A DNA stretch of 64,000 nt from an uncultured beta proteobacterium (GTDB taxonomy: Bacteria; Pseudomonadota; Gammaproteobacteria; Burkholderiales; SG8-39). This document shows, piece after piece, positions 32,983-51,482 of the stretch; the stretch's first letter is position 1, and each line of letters opens with the position of its first letter. Position numbers and translations under genes: made by a program. A model generated the notes under the pieces. That model searched no databases, was not told the origin of the DNA, and saw only the letters and a list, made by a program, of their open reading frames with translations. The DNA lies in the NCBI GenBank assembly GCA_963719995.1, contig CAVRDW010000005.1, forward strand, positions 576,100-640,099. The letters are read 5' to 3'.

Positions 32983-33444
32983 GTGAAGGTCCACGACGCG
33001 CTGACCGGCGCGGGCCTCGCCGCGCTCGGCGGCGTGGTCCTCTGGCACATCCAGGGGTTTCCGGCCATGCCGGGCCAGAAGTTCGGCCCGGCGTGGTTTC
33101 CTGGTGCGATTGCGATCGGGCTACTCGTGTGCGGCGTGATGCTGATGCTGCGCGCCGGGCGCGGCCCCTGGCTCGCGCGGCCGGAGTGGACCCGGCGCGC
33201 ACGGCCGCTCGCCGGCGTCGCCTCGGTGGTCGGCGGCCTGTTGTTCTACGTGCTCGCCGCCGACCGGCTCGGCTTCCACCTGACCGGCTTCCTGCTGCTC
33301 CTGCTGTGGACGCGCGTGCTGGGAGCCGGTTGGCGCATGGCAATCGCGGTGTCGGTGATTGCGACGCTGGCCATCCACCTGTCTTTCTACAAGCTGCTGC
33401 GCATTCCCCTGCCCTGGGGCGTGCTCGAGCGCTTCGCGTTCTGA
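32983..33444 (+). CDS. tctB: tripartite tricarboxylate transporter small membrane subunit TctB
   Basis: 153 aa, four hydrophobic helices, located between tctC and tctA, GTG start. Confidence 0.8.
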   Translation: MKVHDALTGAGLAALGGVVLWHIQGFPAMPGQKFGPAWFPGAIAIGLLVCGVMLMLRAGRGPWLARPEWTRRARPLAGVASVVGGLLFYVLAADRLGFHLTGFLLLLLWTRVLGAGWRMAIAVSVIATLAIHLSFYKLLRIPLPWGVLERFAF

Positions 33445-33445
33445 G

Positions 33446-34936
33446 ATGACCACTGCGATCTTCGCCCAGGCGCTGGCGCAGGTGTTCGATCCCTACGTGC
33501 TGTGGGTGATCCTCGGCTCGGCAGTCTTTGGCCTGTTCGTCGGAGCGGTGCCGGGACTCACCGCGACCATGGCCACGGCGCTGCTGGTGCCGGTCACCTT
33601 CTTCATGCCGCCGGTGCCGGCGATCGCCTCGATCGTCACCGCCACCGCGATGGCGATCTTCGCTGGCGACATTCCCAGCTGCTTCCTGCGCATGCCCGGC
33701 ACGCCGGCCTCCGCCGCCTACACCGACGAGGCCTACGCCATGACCAAGAAGGGCCAGGGCGAGCTGGCGCTGGGCGCCGGGCTGGTGTTCTCGGTGATCG
33801 GCGGCCTCTTTGGCACCGCGGTGCTGATCCTCGCCGCGCCGGCGCTGGCGGAAGTGGCGCTCAAGTTCTCTTCCTTCGAATACTTCTGGCTGGTGGTGCT
33901 GGGCCTCGCCAGCGCGGTGTTCCTCGCGCTCGCCAACCCGCTGAAAGGCGTCGTGTCGCTGCTGCTGGGTCTGCTGGTCGCGTCAGTCGGCCTGGACAAC
34001 CCGGCGGGCTTCCCGCGCTTCACCTTCGGCAACGCGGAGCTCGCCGGCGGCTTGACCCTCATTCCGATCATGATCGGCATGTTCGCGGTGTCGGAGATCC
34101 TGCGCAACGTCGCGGCCATCGACAAGCCCTGGGAGATGGCGCAGGCGAAGATCGGCAACGTGTTCCAGGGCATGTGGGGGTTGATGCGGCGCTACCCGTT
34201 GCAGACGCTGCGCGGCAGCGTGCTCGGCACCGCGATCGGAGCGCTGCCCGGCGCGGGCGCGGACATCGCGGCGTGGATGTCTTACGCCGTATCGAAGAAA
34301 TTCTCCAGGGAGCGAGAGAAGTTCGGCACCGGCCACGTCGAGGGCATCATCGAGGCGGGCGCCTCCAACAACAGCGCGATCGCCGGCGCCTGGATCCCGG
34401 CGCTGGTGTTCGGCATCCCGGGCGACTCGATCACCGCCATCGTCATCGGCGTGCTTTACATCAAGGGCCTGAACCCCGGGCCGACGATTTTCATGACCAA
34501 TGCGGTGGCGATCTACGCCATCTTCATGGTGTTCATCCTCGCCAACCTGATCATGCTGCCGCTCGGCATCGCCGCCATCAAGGGCGCCAAGCAGATGCTG
34601 CGCGCGCCGCGCGAGCTCCTGCTGCCGGTGATCCTCCTTTTCTGCATCGTGGGGTCGTTTGCCATCAACAACTCGGCCTTCGGCGTGCTGCTGATGCTCG
34701 GCTTCGGCGTCATCGCGTACCTGATGGAGGAGAACGGCTTCCCGGTGGCCCCCGCGATCCTCGGCATGGTGCTCGGCGCGATGCTGGAGGAAAACTTCAT
34801 CAGCTCGATGATCAAGGCCGACGGGCGTTTCCTCGCCTTCTTCGAGCGGCCGATCGCCGGGGGGCTCGGGGCGTTGACGATCGCGGTGCTGCTGGTGCCG
34901 CTTCTGCGCTACGCCGCGCAGATGCGCCGCCGCTGA
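33446..34936 (+). CDS. tctA: tripartite tricarboxylate transporter large permease TctA
   Basis: Met 30 of ORF 33359..34936, 1 nt after the tctB stop. 496 aa and polytopic, with GAVPGLTATMATALLVP and GALPGAGADIAAW motifs. Confidence 0.9.
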   Translation: MTTAIFAQALAQVFDPYVLWVILGSAVFGLFVGAVPGLTATMATALLVPVTFFMPPVPAIASIVTATAMAIFAGDIPSCFLRMPGTPASAAYTDEAYAMTKKGQGELALGAGLVFSVIGGLFGTAVLILAAPALAEVALKFSSFEYFWLVVLGLASAVFLALANPLKGVVSLLLGLLVASVGLDNPAGFPRFTFGNAELAGGLTLIPIMIGMFAVSEILRNVAAIDKPWEMAQAKIGNVFQGMWGLMRRYPLQTLRGSVLGTAIGALPGAGADIAAWMSYAVSKKFSREREKFGTGHVEGIIEAGASNNSAIAGAWIPALVFGIPGDSITAIVIGVLYIKGLNPGPTIFMTNAVAIYAIFMVFILANLIMLPLGIAAIKGAKQMLRAPRELLLPVILLFCIVGSFAINNSAFGVLLMLGFGVIAYLMEENGFPVAPAILGMVLGAMLEENFISSMIKADGRFLAFFERPIAGGLGALTIAVLLVPLLRYAAQMRRR

Positions 34937-34937
34937 C

Positions 34938-35297
34938 CTAGGGCGCCTCTGATTTATTCCCGCGTGCGCGACGGTGGTGATTTTCGTGCAGGGCGAGACA
35001 GCAGACGCCGCCGTGTACTTGACGTCCACAAGGCGGCTGATGGCGATGCCATGCGCGAAAATCACCCGCGTCCCTCCAGGCGGCGAGGCCGCGATGTGGG
35101 GTTCAACGCAAAGGCCTCGCCGCCTTCGGGTTGCGGCCGGAAGCCCGCGTTGGATCGCTTACGATAGCGCGATGACACGGGCGCCGGCGTTGTTGCTCGG
35201 CCTTACGATATCGACATATCGCTGCGGCCGCGCGCCTAGCCGGCGCCGCGTTCCCGCCGCAACGCGCCACCGCGCGAATAGATCAGAGGCTCCCTAG
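34938..35297 (+). mobile_element. 360-bp MITE-like non-autonomous element, copy A (~27-nt imperfect terminal inverted repeats, CTAG at both ends)
   Basis: The left end CTAGGGCGCCTCTGATTTATTCCCGCG matches the reverse complement of the right end, CTAGGGAGCCTCTGATCTATTCGCGCG. The copy aligns along its full length with the inverted copy at 51123..51482. The core is highly self-complementary and has no transposase ORF. Confidence 0.8.
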
Positions 35298-35377
35298 AAT
35301 CCCGCGCACGACCCAAGGAGGACGCCATGTCGCGCGGCCAACACGCGCGCCGCGCCCGCGGCGCCCGGGGCCGCCGC

Positions 35378-36253
35378 TCAGGTCGGCATCGCCACCTTGA
35401 TGCGCTTCACCTGGTCGCGCGCAAGCGCGCCCGACTGGTAGTCGGCGATCGCCTGCTCGATTTCCTCGCGCGTGTTCATGACGAACGGCCCGTACTGCAC
35501 CACCGGCTCGCGGATGGGCTTGCCGGCGAGGACGAGCACGCGCGCGCCCGTCGCGCCGGCGGTGACGCGAACCGCATCGCCGTCCGAGAGCAGGCCCGCC
35601 GCGCGATGCGGCAATGCCTTGGCATCTTCGCCGATCGACGCTTCGCCTTCGTAGGCATAGAGGAAGGCGTTGTGGCCCGCGGGCAGGCTCGCCTCGAACA
35701 CGGCGCCCGGCGCCAGATGCACGTCCCAGTAGTGCGGTTCGGTCGAGCCGCCGTGCACCGCGCCCTGCGTCTCGGCGAAGCGGCCAGCGATGACCTTGAC
35801 CTCGCCGCCCTGCACGCGCACCACGGGAATGTCCCCGGCAGGGATGTCGCGGTAGGCCGGCGCCTTCATCTTCTCCTTCGCCGGCAGGTTCAGCCAGAGC
35901 TGGAATCCGCGCATGCGGCCCTCGCTCTGCTGCGGCATCTCGGAGTGAATCAAGCCGCGCGCCGCGGTCATCCACTGCACGTCGCCGGGCCCGAGGTCGC
36001 CGGTGTTGCCGCCGCTGTCCTTGTGCTGCATGTGGCCATCGAGCATGTAGGTCACGGTCTCGAAGCCGCGGTGCGGATGCGAGGGAAACCCGGCGAGATA
36101 ATCCTCCGGATCGTCCGAGTAGAACTCATCCAGCATCAGGAACGGGTCGTGCCGCGCGAGCTGGCTCGCGCCGAGCGAGCGGCGCAGCTTCACCCCTGCC
36201 CCATCCGAAGCCGGGATGGAGGGAATGACCCTTTGCAATGTACGGGTAGTCAT
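35378..36253 (-). CDS. pirin family protein
   Basis: Met 97 of ORF 35378..36541. Cupin metal motif HPHRGFETVTYMLDG...H and C-terminal YGPFVMNTREEIEQA. Confidence 0.9.
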   Translation of the reverse strand: MTTRTLQRVIPSIPASDGAGVKLRRSLGASQLARHDPFLMLDEFYSDDPEDYLAGFPSHPHRGFETVTYMLDGHMQHKDSGGNTGDLGPGDVQWMTAARGLIHSEMPQQSEGRMRGFQLWLNLPAKEKMKAPAYRDIPAGDIPVVRVQGGEVKVIAGRFAETQGAVHGGSTEPHYWDVHLAPGAVFEASLPAGHNAFLYAYEGEASIGEDAKALPHRAAGLLSDGDAVRVTAGATGARVLVLAGKPIREPVVQYGPFVMNTREEIEQAIADYQSGALARDQVKRIKVAMPT

Positions 36254-36266
36254 GGCTTGTCCTTTC

Positions 36267-36875
36267 CTAAGCTGCGATTCTTTCCGGCTGCACGAGGTTC
36301 CGCAATACGCGCTGCGCGCTCGCGAGCGCTTCGGTCCTGGACGCCTCGCTGATCGCCAGGCCTTCGGCGAAGACGAACTGCACGTCCGCGATACCCACGA
36401 ACGCCAGGAAGTCGCGTACGTAGGCGGTCTGGGTGTCGCGCGGCGTGCCCTGGTAGAGGCCGCCACGCGCGGCGAAGACGTAGGCCTTCTTGCCAGTGAG
36501 GAGGCCCACCGCGCCCTTCTCCGTGTACTTGAAGGTGACACCCGCGCGTGCCACGTGGTCGAAATACGCCTTGAGCTGCGAAGGAATGCCGAAGTTGTAC
36601 ATCGGCAGGCCGATCACGATGGTGTCGGCCTCGCGCAACTCCGCGACCAGCGCGTCGGATTCCTGGAGCACCCGCTGCTGCGCGGGCGAGCGGTTCTCCG
36701 GCTTGGAGAGAAAGGCGCCGAAGCGCTCCGCGTCCAGGTGCGGCAGCGGGCTCTTCGAGAGGTCGCGCCGCAGGACGCGGGCCGCCGGAAACTGGGCGAC
36801 AAACTGCTCCGCGAGCCGGCTCGACTGGCCGCCCTCGCCGAAGATGCTGGAGTTGAGGTGCAGGATGGTGTTCAT
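36267..36875 (-). CDS. azoR: FMN-dependent NADH-azoreductase
   Basis: Met 13 of ORF 36267..36911 gives MNTILHLNSSIFGEGGQSSRLAEQFV, plus IVIGLPMYNFGIPSQLKAYFDHV. Confidence 0.9.
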   Translation of the reverse strand: MNTILHLNSSIFGEGGQSSRLAEQFVAQFPAARVLRRDLSKSPLPHLDAERFGAFLSKPENRSPAQQRVLQESDALVAELREADTIVIGLPMYNFGIPSQLKAYFDHVARAGVTFKYTEKGAVGLLTGKKAYVFAARGGLYQGTPRDTQTAYVRDFLAFVGIADVQFVFAEGLAISEASRTEALASAQRVLRNLVQPERIAA

Positions 36876-36979
36876 GTAGGGGCTCCTAGGTGCAGGTTGG
36901 TGTGGAGCCATTCTTGTATTGATAGGTTAGATTGAAAAGCGCAAAATATCGCTATTATTAATCTAATTAGTGGATAAAA
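36876..36979. promoter_or_regulatory. AT-rich divergent azoR/LysR intergenic region with an ATTA-N3-TAAT dyad (candidate LysR operator and promoters)
   Basis: A strikingly AT-rich ~100 bp stretch in a GC-rich genome, with the dyad ATTAATCTAAT at 36957..36967. Confidence 0.45.
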
Positions 36980-37885
36980 TTGCCTAACCCAAAGATCACG
37001 CTGGACCAGTGGAACGTCCTCGTTTCAGTAGTCGATTCAGGCGGTTACGCGAAGGCGGCGGAGCGTATTCACAAGAGTCAGTCCACGCTCACATACGCCA
37101 TCAAGAAACTGGAGTTCCTGCTTGGGGTCAAGGTGTTCGAGCTGCGCGGCAGGAAGGCCGTGCTCACATCCACCGGCGAGATCCTCTACCGGCGCGGCAA
37201 GGCGATGCTCGAGGAGGCCGCGCGCCTGGAGCACGCGGCGGGAGAGCTCGCCAAGGGCTGGGAGCCCGAGATCCGCGTCGCGGTCGACATCATGTTTCCG
37301 ACCTGGTTGCTCCTGAAGTGCTTCGGCGAGTTCTGTGCCGAGCGCCCCGGGACGCACATCGAGCTCTACGAGACGGTGCTCGGCGGCACCGAGGAGGCGC
37401 TTGCCGCGCGGCGCGTCGAGTTCGCCATCGGCACGAGCGTGCCGCAGGGCTTCGTCGGCGACGTGCTCATGCCGGTGCGCACGGTCTGCATGGCGGCGCC
37501 CACCCATCCTTTGCACCAGCTTGGACGCGAGCTGACGCTCGAGGACCTGCGCAAGCACCGGCACATCGTCATCCGCGACTCGGGGGAGCAGCGTGCGCGC
37601 GCGGCCGGGTGGCTGAATGAACTGCGCCTGACGGTCTCCAACAAGGCGACTTCGATCCACGCCGCGGCCACCGGCATGGGCTACGCGTGGTATCCGGAGG
37701 ACAGCGTGCGCGGGGAACTGGAACGCGGGGCACTCAAGCCCCTGCCCTTGCGTGAAGGCGCGGAGAAATCGGGGACCCTCTACCTGATCTTCGCCGACCG
37801 CGAGGCGGCGGGGCCCGGCACGCTGCGCCTCGCGCAACTCATCCGCGAGGGCGTGGCGCGGGAATGCAAGGCGCGCAACGCCTGA
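36980..37885 (+). CDS. LysR-family transcriptional regulator
   Basis: N-terminal wHTH LDQWNVLVSVVDSGGYAKAAERIHKSQSTLTYAIKKLE, 301 aa, TTG start, divergent from azoR-pirin. Confidence 0.9.
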   Translation: MPNPKITLDQWNVLVSVVDSGGYAKAAERIHKSQSTLTYAIKKLEFLLGVKVFELRGRKAVLTSTGEILYRRGKAMLEEAARLEHAAGELAKGWEPEIRVAVDIMFPTWLLLKCFGEFCAERPGTHIELYETVLGGTEEALAARRVEFAIGTSVPQGFVGDVLMPVRTVCMAAPTHPLHQLGRELTLEDLRKHRHIVIRDSGEQRARAAGWLNELRLTVSNKATSIHAAATGMGYAWYPEDSVRGELERGALKPLPLREGAEKSGTLYLIFADREAAGPGTLRLAQLIREGVARECKARNA

Positions 37886-37937
37886 TCGCGCCAGAGGGCC
37901 CATGGCCCGCCCTGCCCGCGTGGGGGCCTGTGCGGGC

Positions 37938-37991
37938 CTAGGGTGCCTCTGATGTATTCCCGCGTGCGCGAATAGATCAGAGGCTCCCTAG
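37938..37991. mobile_element. 54-bp mini-copy of the MITE (both terminal inverted repeats, core deleted); forms a near-perfect hairpin
   Basis: CTAGGGTGCCTCTGATGTATTCCCGCGTGCGCG is joined directly to CGCGAATAGATCAGAGGCTCCCTAG. The same CCCGCGTGCGCGA junction text appears at the left end of copy A. Confidence 0.75.
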
Positions 37992-38875
37992 CGCCGGCAG
38001 AACTGCTCGGCGCTGCGCACGCTCTCGGCGCCCTTCTCGAAGTGGTCTTCCCACCAGAGGATGTCCTGCGTCACGACGTGCTCGCCCTCCAGGCGGTGCA
38101 CGCGCAGCAGGCGGCTGTCGTCGCGGTACTCGAGCGGCTCGACATTGCAGGGGAGGTTGCGGTGCACGGGCTGCAGCTCCTTCTCGTCCACCCAGGTGAT
38201 GCGCCCGGTCGGCAGGTCGACGAGCGCCCAGCGCTCGCAGCTCCTGCCGCACTCCCAGCGCGCCACGACCGCGCGGCCGGCGAAGTTCGGCCCGCGCGTC
38301 ACCGCGCGCTCGATGAGTCCCCGGGCGCGCCGCACCGCCGCGTCGGCGCCGCTGAAATTCGGCGGCCGCGTCGCCGGCAGCGGGCTGGTGTCCGCGGGGT
38401 AGGCCTCGAAACCTGCGCCCTGCACGCGCGGCGCCTCGCGGACCGCGAGATTGAGCGTCGCCATCAACGCATCCGGCATGTGCCAGTCGTCGATGTCGAT
38501 GTGTTCGAGCCGGTCGGCCTCATCGACGCGGACTTGCGCGAGCGGTCCCGTGCGGCATCTGCCGGCCTGCAGCTTTGCCTGGTCGCGGCCGCAAACCGAG
38601 TAGGCGGTGTGAGCGCCGCGCAACGCCTCCTTCCCCGGTGGCGCCGCGATGCCGATCGGGATGGCGAAGACCACGTAGCGGCCGGCGGGCACCTCCAGGC
38701 GGTAGCGCGCCTCCCCGGGCTTTGTCTCCGCGTGGATCGTGCCCCCTGCACTGTTGCGCGCGACGACGATCATGGCGGGCAGCGTCTCGCCCGGATAGCT
38801 GAGGCGCCCGCCGATGGTGGCTGCGGGCAGCGCGCCGCTGCAAAGCAGCGCGGCTGCCGCCAACAGCGCGCGCAT
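37988..38875 (-). CDS. hypothetical secreted protein
   Basis: Signal peptide MRALLAAAALLCSGALPAA, 295 aa, high GC3, no motif recognised. The TAG stop lies inside the terminal CTAG of the mini-MITE. Confidence 0.6.
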   Translation of the reverse strand: MRALLAAAALLCSGALPAATIGGRLSYPGETLPAMIVVARNSAGGTIHAETKPGEARYRLEVPAGRYVVFAIPIGIAAPPGKEALRGAHTAYSVCGRDQAKLQAGRCRTGPLAQVRVDEADRLEHIDIDDWHMPDALMATLNLAVREAPRVQGAGFEAYPADTSPLPATRPPNFSGADAAVRRARGLIERAVTRGPNFAGRAVVARWECGRSCERWALVDLPTGRITWVDEKELQPVHRNLPCNVEPLEYRDDSRLLRVHRLEGEHVVTQDILWWEDHFEKGAESVRSAEQFCRR

Positions 38876-38887
38876 TACACTGCCCCC

Positions 38888-39982
38888 ATGGATGCCTCAC
38901 CGCGCAAGATCATTCACCTCGACATGGATGCATTCTACGCATCGGTCGAGCAGCGCGACGACCCCTCCCTCAGGGGCAAGCCGGTGGCGGTGGGCGGCTC
39001 GCCGCAGGGCCGCGGCGTGGTCGCCGCGTGCAGCTACGAGGCACGCAAGTTCGGCGTGCGCTCGGCGATGCCGATGGCGCGCGCGCTGCGCCAGTGCCCG
39101 GAGCTGGCCATCGTGCGCCCGGACTTCGCCAAGTACCGCGAGGTCTCGCAGCAGGTGATGGCCATCCTGCGCTCGGTCACGCCGCTCGTGGAGCCGCTCT
39201 CGCTCGACGAGGCCTACCTGGATGTCACCGAGAATTCGCTGCGCGAGCCGCTCGCGATGGAGGTGGCGAAGTACCTGAAGCGCCGCATCCTCGAGAAGAC
39301 TTCGCTCACCGCCTCCGCCGGCGTCGCGCCGAACAAGTTCCTCGCCAAGATCGCCTCGGGCTGGAAGAAGCCCGATGGGCTCACCGTGATCGCGCCCGAG
39401 CGCGTGGAAGCCTTCCTGCAGAAGCTGCCGGTGGAGGCGCTCTGGGGCGTGGGGCCGGTGACGGCGAAGAAGCTGCGCGCGATCGGCATCGAGAAGCTCG
39501 TGGACGTGCGCGCGGCGGACGAGGAAAAGCTGCGGCGCGCGGTGGGCAGCCTCGCCGAGTGGCTGCAGCGTCTCTCGCGCGGCGACGATCCACGCAAGGT
39601 CACGCCCGACCGGCCGTGGAAATCGATCTCGGCGGAGGACACTTATCCCGAGGACCTCACCGACGTGAAGGAGATGCGAGCGGAAATCGAGCGGTTGGCC
39701 AAGCGCGTCGCCGGCTCGGTCACGAAGAAGGGCCTCGTCGCGCGCACCGTCACCATCAAGGTGCGCTACGCCAATTTCACCACCGTGACGCGCAGCCACA
39801 CCGACGATGCGCCCACCGCAGATGCGAAGCGCATCGCCGAACGCGCGCTCGCGCTGCTTGCGCGCACCGATGCCGGAAAGCGCCCCGTGCGCCTGCTCGG
39901 GGTCGGCGTGCACGGCCTGGCAGCCGTGGGCGGCCGGCCGCTGCCGTCCGTGGCCGCGTTGCCGTTCGACGGCGTGGCCTAG
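38888..39982 (+). CDS. dinB: DNA polymerase IV (Y-family)
   Basis: KIIHLDMDAFYASVEQRDDPSLRGKPVAVGG, SYEARKFGVRSAMP and SLDEAYLDVT motifs; 364 aa. Confidence 0.95.
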   Translation: MDASPRKIIHLDMDAFYASVEQRDDPSLRGKPVAVGGSPQGRGVVAACSYEARKFGVRSAMPMARALRQCPELAIVRPDFAKYREVSQQVMAILRSVTPLVEPLSLDEAYLDVTENSLREPLAMEVAKYLKRRILEKTSLTASAGVAPNKFLAKIASGWKKPDGLTVIAPERVEAFLQKLPVEALWGVGPVTAKKLRAIGIEKLVDVRAADEEKLRRAVGSLAEWLQRLSRGDDPRKVTPDRPWKSISAEDTYPEDLTDVKEMRAEIERLAKRVAGSVTKKGLVARTVTIKVRYANFTTVTRSHTDDAPTADAKRIAERALALLARTDAGKRPVRLLGVGVHGLAAVGGRPLPSVAALPFDGVA

Positions 39983-40031
39983 ACGTTTGTTTTGCAGCGC
40001 GGCATTTCTCCAATGTCAGCGCCGCGCAAAC

Positions 40032-40045
40032 TTGATTTGCGTCAA
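40032..40045 (+). promoter_or_regulatory. Crp/Fnr-family-like box TTGAT-N4-GTCAA upstream of coxM
   Basis: A 9/10 match to TTGAT-N4-ATCAA, centred ~64 nt upstream of the coxM ATG. It is embedded in the dyad CGCAAACTTGATTTGCG. TGATTTGCG is repeated at 40067..40075. Confidence 0.35.
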
Positions 40046-40101
40046 CGAGGCGGACTCTTTGTGCGATGATTTGCGCGCAACTAGAGGAGGAGAGACTCGC
40101 A

Positions 40102-40968
40102 ATGATTCCAGCCGCATTTGATTACCATGCGCCCCGTTCGGTCGCCGATGCGATCAAGCTGCTCGGCCAGCTCGGCCCCGATGCCAAGCTGCTCGCCGGC
40201 GGCCACAGCCTGCTGCCGATGATGAAGCTGCGCTTTGCGCAGCCCGCCCACCTCATCGACCTCGGCCGCATCGCCGAGCTGCGCGGCATCTCGCAGGCGG
40301 GCAACGAAATCCGCATCGGCGCCATGACCACCGAGCACGACCTGCTCAACTCGAAGCTGCTGGCCGAGAAGGCGCCGCTGCTGGTCGAGGGCGCCGCCTG
40401 GATCGCCGATCCGCAGGTGCGCTACAAGGGAACCATCGGCGGCGACATCTCGCACGGCGATCCGGGCAACGACCACCCGGCGCTGATGATCGCCCTGGAT
40501 GCGTCCTTCGTGCTGACGGGCCCGAAGGGCGAGCGCGTCGTCAGGGCCGACGGCTATTTCCTCGGCCTGTATTCGACGCAGCTGGCGGCCGACGAGGTCC
40601 TCACGCAGATCCGCATCCCGGTTCCGCCCGCGGGCAGCGGCTGGTCCTACCAGAAGCTCAAGCGCAAGACCGGCGATTTCGCCACCGCCGCGACCGCGGT
40701 GATGCTGCAGATGAAGGGCAGGAGCGTCGCCAAGGCGGCGATTGCCCTCACCAACGCCGGGCCGACCGTACTCAAGGTGCGCGACGCCGAAGCGTATCTC
40801 GCCGGCAAGGAACTCAACGACGCCAGCCTGAACGAGGCGGCGCGCCTGGCGATGAAGATCTGCAATCCGACACCGGACCAGCGCGGCGATGCCGACTACA
40901 AGCGGGCGATGTGCGGCGAGATGACGCGGCGCGCCCTGCAGGCCGCGCACGCGCGCGCCAAGGGCTGA
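40102..40968 (+). CDS. coxM: CO dehydrogenase-type FAD-binding medium subunit
   Basis: [33 protein letters not shown]...[15 protein letters not shown]; 288 aa; first gene in M-S-L order. Confidence 0.85.
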
Positions 40969-40993
40969 GAGAGGAATCGGGGGAGCGACGAAC

Positions 40994-41476
40994 ATGGCGA
41001 CTACACACAAGGTGTCATTCAAGCTCAACGGCAAGCCGGTGGAGGCGACGGTCGAGGCCCGCGAGCTGCTGATCTACACGCTGCGCGAGAAGCTCGCGCA
41101 TACCGGGCCTCACATCGGCTGCGAGACCTCGCATTGCGGCGCCTGCACGGTGGATCTCAACGGCATGTCGGTCAAGTCCTGCACCGTCCTGACGGTGCAA
41201 TGCGAGGGCGCCGAGATGACCACCATCGAAGGCATGGAACAGGGCGGCGCGCTGCATGCGCTGCAGCAGGCATTTCACGAGGAGCACGGCCTGCAGTGCG
41301 GCTACTGCACGCCCGGCATGATCACGCGCGCCTACCGCCTGCTGAAGGAGAACCCGAATCCGAGCGAGCAGGACATCCGCAAGGGCATCGCCGGCAACCT
41401 GTGCCGCTGCACGGGTTACCAGAACATCGTCAAGGCGGTGCAATCCGCGGCGAAGAAGCTCGCGGCCGCGCGCTAA
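40994..41476 (+). CDS. coxS: CO dehydrogenase-type [2Fe-2S] small subunit
   Basis: [11 protein letters not shown] and CGYCTPGM...CRCTGY cluster motifs; 160 aa. Confidence 0.9.
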
Positions 41477-41502
41477 CTCACAAGACCCACCGGAGAATCC
41501 TC

Positions 41503-43917
<2,415 letters not shown>

Positions 43918-43941
43918 GCCAGGGAGAATGACGGCGCGGCG

Positions 43942-44526
43942 ATGAAGGTCCAGCTCAACCGGACATTTCCGCTGCCCGGCTCGGCCGATGCGGCCTGGGC
44001 GCAGCTGCAGGACATCGCCGCCGTCGCCGCTTGCATGCCCGGGGCGAAGATCACCGAGCGCGTGGACGAGACGCACTACAAGGGCACGGTCAGCGTGAAG
44101 GTCGGACCCGCGAGCCTCTCGTTCCGCGGCGACATCGAAGTCAAGAGCGTCGATGCGTCCGCGCGCACGCTGCGCCTGTTCTCCAAGGGCACCGACACGA
44201 CCGGCGGCTCGGCCGCGTCCATGGACCTGACGGCGCGCATCGATCCGGCCGGCGCGAACGCGTGCACCCTGGTCGGCGAAAGCGAGGTGTCCATGAGCGG
44301 CAAGGCCGCGGCCTTCGGCTCGCGCCTGATGGGACCGGTGTCCGACCAGGTGATCAGCCAGTTTGCGGCCAACTTCGCCGCGCGCCTGCAGGCGATGCCC
44401 GCGCAGGGCGCCCCGGCGCAGGCGCAAGCCGCCGCCGCGCCGGCGCCCGAGGCAAGGCCGCTGAACGCGCTGAGCCTGATGTGGGCCGTCGTCAAGGGCT
44501 GGTTCCGCTCGGTGTTCGCAAAGTGA
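43942..44526 (+). CDS. coxG: CoxG-like SRPBCC-family protein
   Basis: MKVQLNRTFPLPGSADAAWAQLQDIAAVAACMPGAKI...YKGTVSVKVGPASLSFRG, located after coxL. Confidence 0.8.
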   Translation: MKVQLNRTFPLPGSADAAWAQLQDIAAVAACMPGAKITERVDETHYKGTVSVKVGPASLSFRGDIEVKSVDASARTLRLFSKGTDTTGGSAASMDLTARIDPAGANACTLVGESEVSMSGKAAAFGSRLMGPVSDQVISQFAANFAARLQAMPAQGAPAQAQAAAAPAPEARPLNALSLMWAVVKGWFRSVFAK

Positions 44527-44539
44527 TGAGCGCGAAGAC

Positions 44540-45445
44540 ATGAGCTCGCAGCGCGCACTCGATATCGCCGGCTTGCAGCGGGAACTGGCGCGCGCCGGCT
44601 ACATCGCCGAGCCCAGCCTCGCGGCGGCGCTGCTGCTCATGCGCGATCTGGCCCGCCCGCTGCTGCTCGAGGGCGACGCCGGCGTGGGCAAGACGGAGGT
44701 CGCCAAGGTGCTCGCCGAGATCAACCGCACGCGGCTGATCCGGCTGCAGTGCTACGAAGGCCTCGACGCGCATGCCGCGATGTACGAGTGGAACTACCAG
44801 CGCCAGCTGCTGGCGATCAAGCTGCTCGAGCACGACGAGCACGCAGGCGCGAAGGACCTCGCGCAGCGCGAGCAGGACATCTTCTCGGAGCGCTACCTGC
44901 TCAAGCGCCCGCTGCTCGAGGCGATCTCGGGCGAGCGTCCGCCGGTGCTGTTGATCGACGAGATCGACCGCGCCGACGCGGCCTTCGAGGCGTACCTGCT
45001 CGAGCTGCTGTCGGACTTCCAGATCACGATTCCCGAGTTGGGCACCGTGCGCGCCACCAGCCGTCCGCTGGTGGTGATCACCTCCAACGGCACGCGCGAG
45101 CTGTCCGACGCGCTGCGGCGGCGCTGCCTGTACCAGTACATCGACTATCCCGATTACGAGAAGGAGCTCGCCATCGTGCGCCAGAAGGCGCCGGAGGCCG
45201 AGGCGAAGCTGGCGCAGCAGATCGTCGCCTTCGTGCAGGGCGTGCGGCGCATGGAACTGCAGAAGAAGCCCGGCGTCGCGGAGACGCTGGACTGGACCGC
45301 CGCGCTGCTGCGCCTGGGATTCACGACCATCGACATCAACGGCGCCGAGCGCATCATGGACACGCTGAGCGCCCTGATCAAGACGCGCGACGACCGCGTG
45401 GCCTTCCCCCGCGAAGTGGTCGCGCGCCTCGCGGCGGCCAGTTGA
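44540..45445 (+). CDS. coxD: CoxD-like MoxR-family AAA+ ATPase
   Basis: Walker A LLEGDAGVGKTE and Walker B VLLIDEIDRA; 301 aa; located after coxG. Confidence 0.85.
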   Translation: MSSQRALDIAGLQRELARAGYIAEPSLAAALLLMRDLARPLLLEGDAGVGKTEVAKVLAEINRTRLIRLQCYEGLDAHAAMYEWNYQRQLLAIKLLEHDEHAGAKDLAQREQDIFSERYLLKRPLLEAISGERPPVLLIDEIDRADAAFEAYLLELLSDFQITIPELGTVRATSRPLVVITSNGTRELSDALRRRCLYQYIDYPDYEKELAIVRQKAPEAEAKLAQQIVAFVQGVRRMELQKKPGVAETLDWTAALLRLGFTTIDINGAERIMDTLSALIKTRDDRVAFPREVVARLAAAS

Positions 45446-45447
45446 GC

Positions 45448-46575
45448 ATGGGCGCGGCGCCGCAACTCCGGGCGGCGGACCGCCTCGGAAGGTTTCCAGG
45501 GTTCCTGCGCGCCAACGGCTTCGGCATCGCCGGGGGCGACGCCGTGCAGGCGCTGCGCGCGGCGGAGCGCACCGGCGTGCTCGACCAGGCGGTGCTGCGC
45601 TGGAGCCTCAAGGCGCTGCTGTGCCGCCGCGGCGACGAATGGCGGCGTTTCGACGAATTGTTCGACGCCTGGTTCCTGCCCGCCAATCGCTGGCAGCGGC
45701 CCGAGCGGCGCGAGGCTGCGGACGGCGCGCAAAGCGATGCGCATCCGGGAGGCTCCCGCGAAGGCGAAAGAACCGACGACGAGGACCTGCGCCCGCGCCG
45801 CGCGGCGAGCCGGGAGGAGGTGCTGTCCTCGGCGGACTTCAGCGCGCTCGCGGAGCGCGAGCACGCCCTCGAGATCGAGGCGCTGATGCGGCGCCTCGCG
45901 CGGCAACTGAAGCACATCCGCCTGCGCCGCGAGGCGCGCGCGCGCCGCGGGCGGCGGCTCGACCTTCCGGGAACGATCCGGCGCAGCGTGGCGAGCGGCG
46001 GCACGCCGATTCACCTGCTGTGGCGCAACCAGCGCTCCGAGCGCCCGCGGCTGGTGCTGCTGATCGACGTCAGCCGCTCGATGGTGCTGTACAGCTTCTT
46101 CTACCTGCGGCTGGCGCGCGCCCTCGCCAACGAGCTCGACGACGTGCACAGCTTCATCTTCCACACGCGCGTGACCGCGGTGTCGCAGGCGCTGCACGAT
46201 TCCGACCCCTGGCGCGCGCAGGAGCGGCTGCATCTCATCGCGCAGGGCTGGGCGGGCGGCACGCGCATCGGCGAGAGCCTGGCGCAATTCAACCGCGAGC
46301 ACGCGCCGCGCGTGGTGCATGGGCGCACCGCGGTGCTGATACTCAGCGACGGCTACGATACCGGCGAGCCGCGGGAGCTCTCCGACGCGCTGGCGCAACT
46401 GCGGCGCCGCGCGCGTCGCCTCGTATGGATCAACCCGCTCAGCAATCGCCCGGGCTATGCGCCGACCTGCCAGGGCATGCAGGCCGCCATGCCGCACCTG
46501 GACCTGCTCGCGCCGGGCGGCGACCTGGCGAGCCTGCGCGCGGTGCTGCCGAACCTGATCGAAACCCTGCATTGA
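45448..46575 (+). CDS. coxE: CoxE-like von Willebrand factor A domain protein
   Basis: The internal Met of ORF 44749..46575 lies 3 nt after the coxD stop. LVLLIDVSRSM (MIDAS DxSxS) and VLILSDGYDTGE. Confidence 0.8.
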   Translation: MGAAPQLRAADRLGRFPGFLRANGFGIAGGDAVQALRAAERTGVLDQAVLRWSLKALLCRRGDEWRRFDELFDAWFLPANRWQRPERREAADGAQSDAHPGGSREGERTDDEDLRPRRAASREEVLSSADFSALAEREHALEIEALMRRLARQLKHIRLRREARARRGRRLDLPGTIRRSVASGGTPIHLLWRNQRSERPRLVLLIDVSRSMVLYSFFYLRLARALANELDDVHSFIFHTRVTAVSQALHDSDPWRAQERLHLIAQGWAGGTRIGESLAQFNREHAPRVVHGRTAVLILSDGYDTGEPRELSDALAQLRRRARRLVWINPLSNRPGYAPTCQGMQAAMPHLDLLAPGGDLASLRAVLPNLIETLH

Positions 46576-46588
46576 ACGGAGACTGACC

Positions 46589-47284
46589 ATGGGATGCATG
46601 TACAAGGCGAACGGCCTCTATAGCCGCATGACGGTGGGCGCGGTGCTGCTCGCCGCGGGCGGCGGCTCGCGCATGGGCGGACGTCCGAAGGCGCTGCTGG
46701 AGCTTGGCGGCGTGCCGCTGGTGCTGCGCCAGCTCATCGCGCTCTCGGGTGCGGGGGTCGATGAAGTCGCCGTGGTGCTCGGCCATCATGGCGAGGCCAT
46801 CGAGGCCGCGGTGCGGCCGTTCCCGATCACGCTGGTAAGGAACCCGTCGCCCGACGACGGGCAGGTTTCGTCGGTGCGCCTCGGGCTGGGCGCGCTGTCG
46901 CCGAGGCTCGACGCGGTGATCGTCGCGCTCGCCGATCAGCCGCTGATCGATGCGCAGGACATCGTCGCGCTGATCAGCGCCTACCGGAAGCGCGGCGCGG
47001 CGTCCATGGTGGTGCCGCGGGTGCAGCGCGCCGGCGGCGAGACCGTGCCGGGCAACCCGGTGATGTTCGACGCCGCGCTGCGCGAGGAGTGGCTCGCCGC
47101 CAGCGCGGACCTCGCCTGCCGCAAGTGGCGCGAGAAGAATCCCGCGCGCGTGCACTGGTTCGACACCGACAACCAGCGCTATAGCGTGGACGTCGACACG
47201 CCCGAAGACCTGGAGCGGTTCGCGGCCAGCACCGGGCATCGCCTCGTCTGGCCGGCGGCTTACGCACAAGAAGCGGTTGCATGA
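46589..47284 (+). CDS. MobA/MocA-like nucleotidyltransferase (molybdenum cofactor cytidylyltransferase-type)
   Basis: GAVLLAAGGGSRMGGRPKALLEL and VALADQPLI motifs, with a GGAG RBS before ATG 46589. An alternative start is at 46628. Confidence 0.75.
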   Translation: MGCMYKANGLYSRMTVGAVLLAAGGGSRMGGRPKALLELGGVPLVLRQLIALSGAGVDEVAVVLGHHGEAIEAAVRPFPITLVRNPSPDDGQVSSVRLGLGALSPRLDAVIVALADQPLIDAQDIVALISAYRKRGAASMVVPRVQRAGGETVPGNPVMFDAALREEWLAASADLACRKWREKNPARVHWFDTDNQRYSVDVDTPEDLERFAASTGHRLVWPAAYAQEAVA

Positions 47285-48477
47285 TCGACGCCGCTGCCGC
47301 GATCCGGTTCCGCCTGATGCTGGCGCGCGCCTGCGCATGGGCGCTGCTGGTCGCGGGCTGGATCGGCGTCGGCAGCTTCGCGCTGCTCGTCGCGCCGTCG
47401 GTGAGCAGCGGCTTTGCGCTGGTCGCGCTGTGGCTTTTCGCGCTCGGCGCCGCCGCCGCGGTGGCGACGCGGGGCAGCTTAGGGCAGGCGGTACAGCGGG
47501 CTGCGCTCTGTGCAGGCGCGGCTGCGACGGCCGGCGGGCTCTGGTGGACGGTCCATGGCGGAGGATTGAGCGCGCTGCTGCTCACGCTTGTCGGCTGGGC
47601 CGCATTGACGGCCTTGGCGTCAGGCGTGGTGCGCGGCTTGCGCATCACGCAGGCCGTGGCGCCGAACCCGCCCATCGTTCCCGCAAGCCTGGGTGCGTTG
47701 GTCGCCGCATTGTTCCTGGGTGACATCGGCGACCTGCCGGCGCTCGCGATTCGTCTGATGGCATTCGTCGCGACCATGAGCATCGCCCTGTTCCTGTTGC
47801 AGGCCCGCATCAGCACGGGCGCCGCCAGACAAGGTTGTCGGGCGGGCCTGTTCGATTGTTCCCTGCCGTCATGGCCAGCAGGTGCCTGGCGAGACGTCAT
47901 GCAGTGGCCCACCTTGATTGCGGGGCTGGTCATGCTGCCCACCATGGCGGCGCTGCCGCTGATGGCGGAGTGGTGCCGGGCAGAATCCGTGGCGCCGCAG
48001 ACGATGGTGCTATGGCACCTGTCGGCGATGTTCGGGCCCGCGCTGCTGCTGCGGCGGTGGGTCGCGCAGTGGTCGGCGCGAACCCTCGCGTCCGCGTGCG
48101 CGGCGCTCCTCGCGCTTGGCGCGGCGGCGGCCTTGTGGGCAGCCTCGCCGCTCAATCTTCTGGGGGTGTCGGTTGCGCAGGGCGCCGCCTGGGGACTCGC
48201 CTGGTGCGGCCAATTGTGGGCGCCGGAGCGGCGCGGCCGGCAGGGGGCGTCGCCGCTGGTTGCCGCCGTCGGGTATGCCGCGCTGACGCTCGCGTTCGGC
48301 GTGCTCGTCGATCACGCCGGGGCGCGCGGTGTCCTCCTCATGCACGCTTTCTTCGGCGTTGCGGCGGCGCTGGCTTGGCTGGCGGCAGATGTGGCGCGCC
48401 TCTGGTCCCGGCGACGGAATCCGGCCTCGGCCAGCGTCCATGCGGCGCCCACCAAGGGAGCCCGACCGATTTCGTAG
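47281..48477 (+). CDS. polytopic membrane protein of unknown function (~10-12 TM, MFS-like topology)
   Basis: ATGA overlap with the upstream gene. 398 aa, almost entirely hydrophobic helices, no family motif recognised. Confidence 0.55.
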   Translation: MIDAAAAIRFRLMLARACAWALLVAGWIGVGSFALLVAPSVSSGFALVALWLFALGAAAAVATRGSLGQAVQRAALCAGAAATAGGLWWTVHGGGLSALLLTLVGWAALTALASGVVRGLRITQAVAPNPPIVPASLGALVAALFLGDIGDLPALAIRLMAFVATMSIALFLLQARISTGAARQGCRAGLFDCSLPSWPAGAWRDVMQWPTLIAGLVMLPTMAALPLMAEWCRAESVAPQTMVLWHLSAMFGPALLLRRWVAQWSARTLASACAALLALGAAAALWAASPLNLLGVSVAQGAAWGLAWCGQLWAPERRGRQGASPLVAAVGYAALTLAFGVLVDHAGARGVLLMHAFFGVAAALAWLAADVARLWSRRRNPASASVHAAPTKGARPIS

Positions 48478-48597
48478 CGCGACCGCGCGGGCCGGGCCGC
48501 AGGCTGCCCGATTCCGGCAGCGCGTTGCCACGATTAATCCACGCTGGCGGCAGGTTCGCCGTGCAGGCTCCCTCCACCACCTTTGCACGGGGGAGCC

Positions 48598-49968: not shown

Positions 49969-50065
49969 CGGATTGCGCGAACGCCCACGATCAGCCAGCC
50001 CGCGCGCTTGCCAAGGCCCGCGGCGGCGGACTACTCTGTGCGCCCCTCTCAGCGGTTCGGCTCGG

Positions 50066-50830: not shown

Positions 50831-50879
50831 CGCGCAGGCGGCTGCATGGGCCGGGCGGCGCGCCGGCCCGGGGCGCCGG

Positions 50880-51095: not shown

Positions 51096-51122
51096 GTCCT
51101 CGCAGGCCGGGCGCCCGGGCGC

Positions 51123-51482
51123 CTAGGGAGACTCTGGTCTATTCGCGCGGTGGCGCGTTGCGGCCGGAACGCGGCGCCGGCTAGGCGCAAGGCCGCAGCG
51201 ATATGTCGATATCGCAAGGCCGAGCAACAACGCCGGCGCCCGTGTCATCGCGCTATCGTAAGCCAACCGTCGAGGACTTCCGGCCGCAACCCGAAGGCGG
51301 CGAGGCCTTTGCCGTGAACCCCCGCCTCGCGGCCTCGCCGCCTGGAGGGACGGGGTGATTTTCGCGCATGGCTTCGCCATCGGCCGCCTTGTGGACGTCA
51401 AGTACACGGCGGCGTCCGCTGTCTCGCCCTGCACGAAAATCGCCACCGTCGCGCACGCGGGAATAGATCAGAGTCTCCCTAG
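51123..51482 (-). mobile_element. 360-bp MITE-like element, copy B (inverted relative to copy A)
   Basis: Same length and the same termini (CTAGGGAGACTCTGGTCTATTCGCGCG ... CGCGGGAATAGATCAGAGTCTCCCTAG). The internal sequence is the reverse complement of 34938..35297 with scattered substitutions. Confidence 0.8.

What the first reader, a model, noticed from the sequence alone, without database searches (positions are those of the whole stretch)
34938..35297. Previously unnamed structured 360-bp MITE-like repeat family (copies at 34938..35297, 51123..51482 and a 54-bp derivative at 37938..37991)
Seen:
- Two copies of exactly 360 bp align end to end in opposite orientation. I estimate roughly nine-tenths identity by eye; this was not computed.
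- The termini are ~27-nt imperfect inverted repeats, CTAGGGnGCCTCTGATnTATTCnCGCG.
- The core has several long-range complementary pairs: GGTGATTTTCG/CGAAAATCACC, GGCGGCGAGGCC/GGCCTCGCCGCC (a perfect 12-mer), GGCGCCGGC/GCCGGCGCC and CGATAT/ATATCG.
- There is no transposase-sized ORF. The 107-aa internal ORFs are Arg/Ala-rich and look like read-through of structured GC-rich DNA.

Inference: this is a non-autonomous element mobilised in trans. The extensive secondary structure means transcripts that run into it could be stabilised, terminated or processed.
Basis: partly seen in the sequence, partly recalled or inferred. Interest (0 to 1): 0.6.

Follow-up and report, generated by a model that had tools for sequence, protein, structure and literature searches.

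The report
Structured IS5-type MITE family
The 360-bp repeat is a real, recently active, gene-less jumping element with ends like insertion sequence IS5; it is ordinary in kind, but its folded core is conserved across many betaproteobacterial genera and matches no catalogued RNA family.

Summary
Copies A (34938-35297, +) and B (51123-51482, -) align end to end at 93% identity, and 37938-37991 is an internal-deletion derivative.

The host genome is an uncultured Burkholderiales MAG. It carries about 60 copies. Three sister species carry 3-10 copies and 21 other species of the genus carry none. Sister species show empty sites with a single CTAG.

The termini match E. coli IS5 (17 of 20 bases) and MITEPsy1, and the target is CTAG, as for IS5. 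This makes it an IS5-family MITE. No IS5-type transposase is present in the assembly.

Three features are unusual:
- The two ends co-vary perfectly within each copy but are unlinked to the sites between them.
- The core (diversity 0.02-0.03) is far more conserved than the ends (0.35).
- A 113-nt arm of the core is a covariation-supported, strand-specific fold. It occurs in roughly 278-bp MITEs of 72 of 401 sampled Burkholderiales genomes (40 genera) and matches nothing in Rfam.

In this genome, copies lie in the sense orientation of the neighbouring genes (24:4) and often sit on their TAG stop codon.

Verdict: a new member of a known kind, with a core that may act as RNA.

The parts
34938..35297 (+). 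Copy A, full 360-bp element including the CTAG at each end. It lies 1 nt after the TGA stop of tctA (33359-34936, +), in sense orientation, and is convergent with a pirin gene (35378-36541, -).
   Evidence: the orthologous site in sister species G017 is empty
34938..34970 (+). Left terminal inverted repeat, the 5' strand of the terminal stem. CTAG is followed by an IS5-like end, GGCGCCTCTGATTTATTCCCGCG.
34960..35074 (+). Arm I, a conserved structured domain of about 113 nt. It matches model R1 at 125 bits, against 28 bits on the opposite strand.
35076..35129 (+). Arm II, a GGCGGCGAGGCC/GGCCTCGCCGCC hairpin with a variable loop. It is specific to the 360-bp family and absent from the roughly 278-bp relatives.
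35130..35271 (+). 3' domain, closed by GGGTTGCGGCCGGAA / TTCCGGCCGCAACGCG. It contains the GCGATATCGACATATCGC hairpin and the conserved GCGCCTAGC motif.
35272..35297 (+). Right terminal inverted repeat, the 3' strand of the terminal stem.
51123..51482 (-). Copy B, full 360-bp element. The TAG inside its left CTAG (51479-51482) is the stop codon of the upstream MAPEG-family gene (51479-51883, -). The element is in sense orientation.
51347..51460 (-). Arm I of copy B, matching model R1 at 130 bits.
37938..37991 (+). 54-bp internal-deletion derivative: left end 1-33 joined to right end 340-360 across GCGCGA. Its right CTAG supplies the stop codon of the minus-strand ORF 37988-38875.

Best explanation
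The repeat is a non-autonomous DNA transposon, a MITE, of the IS5 family.

**Shown.** It is a mobile insertion that lands on CTAG and leaves CTAG at both ends. Its termini are IS5-like. It has no gene. It expanded to about 60 copies in this lineage.

**Inferred.** An IS5-type DDE transposase supplied in trans moves or moved it. That transposase is now missing from the assembly, either lost or located in the unassembled part.

In this 69% GC genome, 32% of CTAG sites are TAG stop codons preceded by C. About half of the copies sit exactly on a gene's stop codon. They leave the gene intact and become part of its 3' untranslated or intercistronic transcript.

**What propagates is a fold, not just two ends.**
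- The outer 22 bp of the two ends may take many sequences but always match each other.
- The interior is held nearly constant.
- Arm I is a strand-specific structure conserved across the order.

**Most likely reading (inferred).** The terminal repeats are kept alike at the DNA level. The core is selected in its plus-strand single-stranded form. That form is most simply the RNA made when upstream genes read into the element.
For: **Mobility**
- BLAST finds 67 places in the genome.
- End-pattern counts are 119 in G000, 19 in G019, 19 in G020 and 5 in G017. The other 21 genomes of the genus have none.
- Sister species have empty sites with a single CTAG.

**IS5 affinity**
- The subfamily-B end GGAAGCTCTGAACAAGTCCC matches the IS5 end GGAAGGTGCGAACAAGTCCC at 17 of 20 positions.
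- The MITEPsy1 repeat is GGAAGGTCTGAAAAAGCC, with a 4-nt duplication of CTAG.
- IS5 duplicates YTAR, most often CTAG.

**Stop-codon landing**
- 26 of 53 copies sit on a gene's stop codon, against 424 of 1340 free CTAG sites.

**Fold selected**
- z = -9 on folding.
- Stem positions show all four Watson-Crick pair types.
- In the four-gamete test, left-end and right-end sites are fully compatible with each other. Both are incompatible with almost every site between them.
- Diversity is 0.35 in the variable part of the ends, 0.2 in loops and 0.02-0.03 in core blocks.

**Arm I**
- In the 15-sequence alignment, 94% of cells are paired and 14 of 30 pairs show double changes. No shuffle of 500 reached this.
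- The model hits 72 of 401 genomes in 40 of 167 genera.
- Across 58 distinct sequences, 92% of cells are paired against 74% when shuffled. The covariation score is 0.48, against at most 0.10 for slid partners.
- G.T outnumbers A.C by 61 to 8 in the well-supported helices.
- The plus strand scores 125-130 bits against 28 bits for the minus strand.

**Sense orientation**
- Between co-directional genes, 24 copies are sense and 4 antisense.
- The reading-in gene is at the left end only in 18 copies and at the right end only in 4.
- Orientation is unrelated to GC skew.
Against: - **No cognate transposase.** DDE_3, DDE_Tnp_1_2 and DDE_Tnp_1 are absent from G000, G017 and G019. tblastn with IS5-, IS903- and IS1182-type transposases finds nothing in the own genome.
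- **No parent elsewhere.** No IS in 16 other MITE-bearing genomes has matching ends or carries arm I. One complete genome, G372, has at least 9 copies and no IS5-type transposase.
- **Incomplete assembly.** It is only 79% complete.
- **Duplication length unresolved.** CTAG is a palindrome, so a 2-bp TA duplication and a 4-bp CTAG duplication look the same. One site, C1:211494, is one step more parsimonious under TA.
- **Strand asymmetry limited to arm I.** The terminal stem shows 18:23 and the closing stem of the 3' domain about 20:17.
- **Orientation bias not general.** A sample of the wider superfamily gives 12:8.
- **Weak RNA evidence.** It consists of metatranscriptome contigs without strand information.
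Confidence: 0.8

Rival explanations
1. The core is a functional structured RNA in its own right, and the MITE shell only carries it. It could be a 3'-UTR or intercistronic element that stabilises, terminates or processes host transcripts. It could instead be an RNA that the element needs for its own spread. This overlaps with the best explanation rather than excluding it.
For: - Arm I covaries across 40 genera and has conserved unpaired motifs: CAGGGC.AGGC, ACAAG and GCAACGACGCCATGCG.
- G.U outnumbers A.C by 61 to 8.
- The same core occurs with different terminal repeats and different duplications, CTAG or TNA.
- The own genome shows a sense-orientation bias of 24:4.
- Contigs containing the element are present in two metatranscriptomes.
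Against: - No promoter-like or terminator-like site lies in the element.
- Both strands fold equally well.
- The 3' domain and the terminal stem show no strand asymmetry.
- The wider sample shows no orientation bias, 12:8.
- Copies are present or absent between sister species, so no single copy is essential.
Confidence: 0.3
2. The matching of the two ends is a passive by-product and is not selected. The arms of a quasi-palindrome are corrected against each other by template switching or mismatch repair when the DNA folds back during replication. A change in one end is therefore copied into the other.
For: - The mismatch spectrum of the terminal stem is symmetric, G.T 18 against A.C 23, as expected for a DNA-level process.
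- The variable part of the ends is the most diverse segment of the element, 0.35. This suggests that paired changes accumulate at close to the single-mutation rate.
- The ends are perfectly linked to each other and unlinked to the interior.
Against: - The C.C mismatch at position 23 inside the stem is kept in 52 of 53 copies, and an asymmetric internal loop is conserved. A general correcting process should have removed them.
- A U.G wobble at pair 17/352 is shared by four copies in this genome and one in G017, and one at pair 22/347 by five copies. These wobbles therefore survive transposition.
Confidence: 0.25
3. It is a MITE of the IS630/Tc1-mariner family. It would insert into the TA of CTAG and duplicate only TA, with GGG...CCC as the true termini.
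For: - Copies with unequal flanks always differ at the outer base (for example TTAGGG...CCCTAG and CTAGGG...CCCTAA), never at the base next to the element. That base is G or C in all 53 copies.
- The site C1:211494 needs one mutation fewer under a TA duplication.
Against: - None of the four genomes that carry the family has a DDE_3 transposase.
- With a 4-bp duplication, the ends align without a gap to IS5 at 17 of 20 positions and to MITEPsy1.
- A relative in another genus has the same GGAGCC end directly after a TTA duplication.
Confidence: 0.08
4. The element is moved by a structure-specific enzyme that recognises the folded single strand or an extruded cruciform. Candidates are a HUH, RuvC-like or tyrosine recombinase rather than a sequence-specific DDE transposase.
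For: - The ends need only be complementary, while the core is conserved.
- No DDE partner was found in several genomes that carry copies, including one complete genome.
Against: - The outermost bases and the target site are IS5-like.
- Orientation is unrelated to replication direction, unlike single-strand transposons.
- No candidate enzyme was identified.
Confidence: 0.07

Closest known systems
MITEPsy1 of Pseudomonas syringae pv. phaseolicola, attributed to ISPsy2 and listed as 'IS5?' (PMC3189936)
   Same: - The terminal repeat GGAAGGTCTGAAAAAGCC closely resembles GGAAGCTCTGAACAAGTC here, with 15 of 18 positions identical by my count.
- It inserts at CTAG and leaves CTAG on both sides.
- It has no gene.
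- Its movement was shown experimentally.
   Different: - MITEPsy1 is 100 nt long, has six copies and has a candidate parent IS in the same genome.
- The element here is 360 bp, with about 60 copies, a three-armed conserved core and no parent IS in the assembly.
IS5 of E. coli (IS5 family, IS5 group)
   Same: - The end sequence GGAAGGTGCGAACAAGTCCC matches subfamily B at 17 of 20 positions.
- The target is YTAR, most often CTAG, with a 4-bp duplication.
   Different: - IS5 is 1195 bp and encodes the InsH transposase.
- Its two ends are alike over only 16 bp.
- No InsH homologue exists in this genome.
Hairpin-forming bacterial MITEs: Correia/NEMIS (Neisseria), ERIC (enterobacteria), RUP (pneumococcus) and bcr1 (Bacillus cereus)
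   Same: - They are small, gene-less, dispersed, intergenic repeats.
- Their transcripts fold into long stem-loops.
- For bcr1, compensatory base changes that keep an RNA structure are reported (PMC3184786).
- MITE transcripts are generally described as forming stable stem-loops (PMC10969869).
   Different: - Those families are 100-170 bp simple hairpins confined to a genus or family.
- Here a 113-nt multi-helix arm with conserved loops is shared by elements with different ends across 40 genera.
- Here the core is more conserved than the ends.
Tourist-type MITEs of the PIF/Harbinger superfamily (eukaryotic relatives of IS5). This comparison is recalled from memory and was not tested.
   Same: The roughly 278-bp relatives start with GGGCCTGTT... 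or GAGCCTGTT... and are flanked by TTA or TAA. This resembles what I recall of Tourist and PIF ends and their TWA duplication.
   Different: The hosts are bacterial. No PIF-like (DDE_Tnp_4) transposase was searched for.
BRE, the betaproteobacterial repeat element of Bordetella (PMC3110155)
   Same: It is a GC-rich intergenic repeat found in several Betaproteobacteria, and part of it is transcribed.
   Different: BRE is about 90 bp long, often in tandem arrays that vary in number, and has no described inverted termini or target duplication. It is not the same element.

Membership tests
Bacterial MITE (non-autonomous DNA transposon) | Small size and no coding capacity | tested here: met
   The element is 360 bp. 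Its ORFs have no Pfam match, and reading frames are not conserved between copies.
Bacterial MITE (non-autonomous DNA transposon) | Terminal inverted repeats | tested here: met
   There are 22 paired bases, then a C.C mismatch, then 4 more pairs. This holds in all 53 copies examined.
Bacterial MITE (non-autonomous DNA transposon) | Many dispersed copies, present or absent between relatives, with a target-site duplication | tested here: met
   There are 67 places in the genome. Relatives have empty sites with one CTAG, where filled sites have CTAG at both ends.
Bacterial MITE (non-autonomous DNA transposon) | An autonomous IS with the same termini that supplies the transposase | tested here: not met
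   No end pair lies at IS spacing. The genome has no repeat of IS size. No DDE_3, DDE_Tnp_1_2 or DDE_Tnp_1 is present. No IS in other carrier genomes has matching ends or arm I. The assembly is 79% complete.
IS5 family, IS5 group (as source of the ends) | Termini of the GGAAGG... type | tested here: met
   17 of 20 positions are identical to the IS5A end read from E. coli K-12. The ends are also close to MITEPsy1.
IS5 family, IS5 group (as source of the ends) | Insertion at YTAR (mostly CTAG) with a 4-bp duplication | tested here: inconclusive
   The target is CTAG, matching IS5. A duplication length of 4 cannot be told from 2 because CTAG is a palindrome. A relative with TTA|GGAGCC favours GG... 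as the true end. One site favours TA.
IS630/Tc1-mariner-derived MITE | TA duplication and an IS630-type (DDE_3) transposase in the host | tested here: not met
   No DDE_3 is present in any of the four carrier genomes, while the control genomes gave hits. A TA duplication is not excluded.
Any described RNA family (Rfam 15) | Match to a curated covariance model | tested here: not met
   The window has no match at gathering score. At E <= 10 on the element there are only three chance-level hits, the best at 16 bits.
BRE (betaproteobacterial repeat element) | About 90-bp unit, often in tandem arrays of variable number | tested here: not met
   The element is 360 bp, occurs as single dispersed copies, and has inverted termini and a target duplication (against the description). 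The BRE sequence itself was not compared.
Single-strand (IS200/IS605-type) transposon derivatives or REPIN | Orientation tied to the replication strand, with no inverted termini or duplication | tested here: not met
   Orientation is independent of GC skew, 20/17 against 9/7. Inverted termini and a duplication are present.

The most novel reading that the evidence does not exclude
The conserved core is a functional, strand-specific structured RNA module. This applies above all to the 113-nt arm I, with its invariant loop motifs and a conserved U.G pair. The module has been carried for a long time by IS5-type shells with interchangeable ends throughout the Burkholderiales. It would be either an undescribed cis-acting element of 3' UTRs and operon spacers, or an RNA that the element itself needs in order to spread. 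In that case the unit of selection would be the fold rather than the transposase-binding ends.
Probability: 0.3. Interest if true: 0.75.

Novelty: new member of a known kind. Interest (0 to 1): 0.5.

Why it matters
As a MITE it is ordinary, and it explains several oddities of this window. These include the inverted 360-bp copies that bracket a 15.8-kb block and the stop codons supplied by repeat ends.

The wider result is more useful. One structured domain was found in about a fifth of the sampled Burkholderiales genomes. It is supported by strong covariation and matches nothing in Rfam. It gives annotators a model for masking hundreds of 'conserved structured intergenic regions' that could otherwise be taken for riboswitches or sRNAs.

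It also offers a tractable case for an open question: why some bacterial MITEs conserve their interior better than their ends. Two questions follow. Are their ends kept alike by selection or by templated repair? Do hosts tolerate or use them as RNA elements behind genes?

Tried and rejected
**Parent IS**
- I first read the TA flanks as IS630-like. No DDE_3 transposase was found, and gap-free alignment to IS5 changed that reading.
- In the own genome I looked for end pairs at IS spacing, for self-BLAST repeats of at least 450 bp (these were only tandem repeats inside proteins), for three Pfam transposase families and for tblastn hits. Nothing was found.
- The one IS found in sister species G020 (L080) is flanked by CTAG, but its ends, GAGTCTGGGCGGCAGA, are unrelated.
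- ISs of 16 other carrier genomes have no matching ends and no arm I.

**Database and literature searches**
- BLAST of the element against plasmids gave only chance hits.
- Rfam at a permissive threshold gave nothing.
- Full-text literature searches for the end sequences gave nothing relevant.
- BRE of Bordetella turned out to be a different repeat.

**Other tests**
- The coding hypothesis was rejected.
- There is no replication-strand bias.
- The scan found no promoter-like or terminator-like sites.
- The 75-bp insert of the 430-bp variant is not an independent repeat. It occurs only inside this family.
- A tree of the interior does not separate the end types. I therefore used the four-gamete test instead.
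- The RNA evidence from public runs is too weak to use. It consists of contigs only, without strand, and the summed depth over about 60 copies cannot be interpreted.

Full report
**1. The observation**

The sequence is as described. Copy A (34938-35297, +) and copy B (51123-51482, read on the minus strand) are both 360 bp. They align end to end with 336 of 361 columns identical, which is 93.1%.

Both begin CTAGGG and end CCCTAG. They have about 27 nt of terminal inverted repeat, interrupted by one C.C mismatch at position 23.

The 54-bp piece at 37938-37991 is left-end bases 1-33 fused to right-end bases 340-360 across the shared hexamer GCGCGA. It is an internal-deletion derivative.

The fold has a terminal stem closing three arms:
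- plus strand as RNA: -214.5 kcal/mol, against -159.4 +/- 5.8 for shuffles, z = -9.5
- minus strand as RNA: z = -9.0
- plus strand as DNA: z = -9.1

The 107-aa ORFs have no Pfam match. Indels of 1-3 nt shift the frames between copies, so nothing is encoded.

**2. It is a dispersed, recently active insertion**

The window is C5:576100-640099 of a 3.97-Mb, 6-contig, 68.7% GC assembly that is 79% complete. Related records are titled as uncultured Burkholderiales or beta proteobacterium MAGs.

BLAST finds 67 places in the genome: 44 full copies, 9 copies of about 430 bp, and truncated or deleted forms. The 430-bp copies carry a 75-bp three-hairpin insert that occurs nowhere else. Mean pairwise identity of full copies is 90%.

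A pattern for the ends gives these counts:

| Genome | Ends matched |
|---|---|
| G000 (own) | 119 |
| G019 | 19 |
| G020 | 19 |
| G017 (also a long-contig assembly) | 5 |
| 21 other species of the genus | 0 |

I joined the two flanks of copies in silico and searched the genus. Many relatives have the uninterrupted site with one CTAG, or a near variant such as CCAG or CTGA. The sites of both window copies are empty in sister species: copy A in G017, and copy B in G017, G019 and G020.

The family is therefore mobile and expanded in this lineage.

**3. Which transposon family**

I first read C-TA-GGG...CCC-TA-G as an IS630-style TA duplication. None of the four carrier genomes has a DDE_3 transposase.

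A note from an earlier agent suggested IS5, and I tested that directly. The ends of IS5A in E. coli K-12 read GGAAGGTGCGAACAAGTCCC and GGAAGGTGCGAATAAGCGGG. If the duplication is the 4-bp CTAG, the second commonest end type here, GGAAGCTCTGAACAAGTCCC, aligns without a gap at 17 of 20 positions.

Two papers fit this reading:
- IS5 duplicates Py-T-A-Pu, most often CTAG (PMC5493358).
- MITEPsy1 of Pseudomonas syringae is a 100-nt element shown to transpose. Its repeat is GGAAGGTCTGAAAAAGCC, it makes a 4-nt duplication of CTAG, and it is attributed to an IS5-type IS (PMC3189936).

So the ends and the target are IS5-like.

The duplication length stays formally open because CTAG is its own reverse complement:
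- The base next to the element is G or C in all 53 copies, and only the outer base varies.
- One site is one step more parsimonious under TA.
- A relative in another genus has TTA directly followed by GGAGCC, which favours GG... as the true end.

**4. No partner**

- The genome has no repeat of IS size. All self-BLAST repeats of at least 450 bp are tandem repeats inside proteins, or belong to a duplicated region between contigs C5 and C6.
- DDE_Tnp_1_2 and DDE_Tnp_1 are absent from G000, G017 and G019.
- tblastn with IS5-, IS903- and IS1182-type transposases finds nothing.
- G020 has one IS flanked by CTAG, but its ends are unrelated.

The element is an orphan in the assembled 79%.

**5. Unusual feature one: the ends co-vary**

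Among 53 copies, several positions of the terminal stem show three or four different Watson-Crick pairs. Position 16 has T-A 21, A-T 11, C-G 8 and G-C 6. Positions 8, 9, 15, 18 and 20 behave similarly. Only a few mismatches occur.

Shared descent does not explain this. A four-gamete test on 47 informative columns shows that the left-end columns (8, 9, 16, 17, 18, 20) are fully compatible with the right-end columns (352-364). Both sets are incompatible with nearly every column in between. The internal pair 80/88 behaves the same way, even with respect to column 83, which lies between its two partners. A tree of the interior does not separate the end types.

The interior is therefore reshuffled among copies, or mutates recurrently, while paired positions stay locked together.

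Two causes are possible: selection for pairing, or templated correction of one arm by the other.
- Against pure correction: the C.C mismatch at position 23 is kept in 52 of 53 copies, and U.G wobbles at pairs 17/352 and 22/347 are shared by several copies.
- For a DNA-level process: the mismatch spectrum of the terminal stem in the wider superfamily is symmetric, G.T 18 against A.C 23.

**6. Unusual feature two: the core is more conserved than the ends**

Nucleotide diversity across full copies:

| Segment | Diversity |
|---|---|
| Variable half of the ends | 0.35 |
| Loops | about 0.2 |
| Core blocks 24-66 and 237-341 | 0.02-0.03 |

For a passive MITE one expects the opposite pattern.

**7. 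Unusual feature three: a structured domain conserved across the order**

A family-level BLAST found diverged relatives in other genera. Their ends differ (TTA|GAACCTGTT..., CTAG|AAGCCATCTCAA..., TTA|GGAGCC...), but their architecture and several motifs are the same.

I analysed arm I, about 113 nt, at 34960-35074 in copy A:
- Fifteen sequences from six genera give 30 pairs, 94% paired, and 14 pairs with changes on both sides. No shuffle of 500 reached these values, and slid controls give at most 53% paired.
- A covariance model built from them hits 72 of 401 genomes sampled across the order, in 40 of 167 genera. Matches are full length at 50-83 bits, and there are several copies per genome.
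- A motif scan of public genomes names carriers such as Sulfuricellaceae, Gallionellaceae, Thiobacillus and Rhodocyclaceae MAGs.
- On 58 distinct sequences, 92% of cells are paired against 74% when shuffled. 25 of 30 pairs show double changes. The covariation score is 0.48, against 0.15 for shuffles and at most 0.10 for slid partners. That alignment is fitted to the model, which inflates pairing somewhat. The size of the effect and the independent 15-sequence test make the helices secure.

These relatives are about 278-bp MITEs. They have 20-26-bp complementary ends starting G(A/G)(A/G)CC and are flanked by TNA or CTAG, which are the duplications typical of IS5-family groups. The 3' domain is also conserved in shape. 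Its closing stem and a 7-bp hairpin take quite different sequences in different genera.

Rfam has no match, even at E <= 10. Literature searches found no description. The betaproteobacterial repeat element BRE is a different, roughly 90-bp tandem repeat.

**8. DNA or RNA?**

For RNA, or at least one strand:
- In the well-supported helices of arm I, G.T cells outnumber A.C cells 61 to 8, or 29 to 8 without one conserved U.G pair.
- The model scores 125-130 bits on one strand and 28 bits on the other. One strand is therefore the one that matters.
- In the own genome, the common polymorphisms in arm I are also G.U on the plus strand.
- Copies between co-directional genes are sense in 24 cases and antisense in 4.
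- The gene whose stop codon lies in the terminal CTAG is at the left end only in 18 copies and at the right end only in 4.
- Orientation is unrelated to GC skew, which speaks against a lagging-strand single-stranded DNA intermediate.

Against, or neutral:
- The closing stem of the 3' domain (about 20:17) and the terminal stem (18:23) show no strand asymmetry.
- A sample of one copy per genome from the wider superfamily shows no clear orientation bias, 12:8, though gene calls there are cruder.
- No promoter-like or terminator-like site was found.
- Two metatranscriptomes contain contigs that match the element and run into the flanks of other copies. They carry no strand information, and DNA carry-over cannot be excluded.

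I therefore rate an RNA-level role for the core as plausible, about 0.3, and not shown.

**9. Context in the window**

- Copy A follows the TGA stop of tctA by one base and faces a convergent pirin gene.
- Copy B supplies, within its CTAG, the TAG stop of a MAPEG-family gene.
- The 54-bp derivative supplies the stop codon of the minus-strand ORF 37988-38875.
- Genome-wide, 26 of 53 copies sit on a stop codon, against 32% of the 1340 unoccupied CTAG sites.

**10. Verdict**

This is a real, recently expanded, orphan IS5-family MITE. It is a new member of a known kind.

Its interest lies in three things:
- the perfectly co-varying ends
- a core better conserved than the ends
- membership in an order-wide superfamily that shares an uncatalogued, covariation-supported, strand-specific structured domain

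Earlier notes of this scan reached similar conclusions on sister copies. I used them as leads and re-tested the IS5 link, the co-variation of the ends and the orientation bias myself.

Noticed in passing
window 34938-51482: Copies A and B lie in inverted orientation and bracket a 15.8-kb block. The block includes pirin and lysR (Pfam); an earlier first-reader note also lists azoR, dinB, the cox genes, creD and a parA-like gene there. 360-bp repeats at 93% identity could support inversion of the block by homologous recombination.
   Followed up: no
G000 C1:316444-316873, C1:518777-519207, C1:828197-828627, C3:98424-98853 and five more: A 430-bp subfamily carries a 75-bp insert made of three small hairpins. 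The insert replaces 6 nt in the 3' strand of arm I and occurs nowhere else in the genome.
   Followed up: partly
L080 (G020:C416:1-1903): Sister species G020 has an IS encoding a 441-aa DDE_Tnp_1 transposase. Its perfect 16-bp ends read GAGTCTGGGCGGCAGA, and it is flanked by CTAG on both sides. It uses the same target as the MITE, but its ends are unrelated.
   Followed up: partly
G000 whole genome: Apart from this MITE family and short palindromic repeats, the assembly has no multi-copy IS. All self-BLAST repeats of at least 450 bp are tandem repeats inside large proteins. Examples are a multihaem-cytochrome-like CxxCH repeat protein at C5:1937894-1939292 and a fibronectin-type repeat protein at C1:320494-321860.
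   Followed up: partly
G000 C6:654-17791 and C5:675593-699391: Almost all of the 17.9-kb contig C6 repeats a region of contig C5. This looks like an assembly duplicate or a strain variant rather than a biological repeat.
   Followed up: no
G000 C5:796783-797144: One copy sits between two adjacent genes that I take to be prfB and lysS (not checked with a tool). In relatives, the upstream stop and the downstream start are 2 nt apart (TAGGCATG). The downstream gene must now be translated from a start preceded by the element's right end (CAGAGGCTCCCTAGGCATG), which contains a GAGG about 10 nt upstream.
   Followed up: no
L261 (G341) and L268 (G456): Some genomes that carry the roughly 278-bp relatives have IS903-like elements with ends GGCTCTGTTGCACAAATC or GGCTTTGTTGACATCCTC. 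These resemble the MITE ends only loosely, in a shared CTGTT motif.
   Followed up: partly
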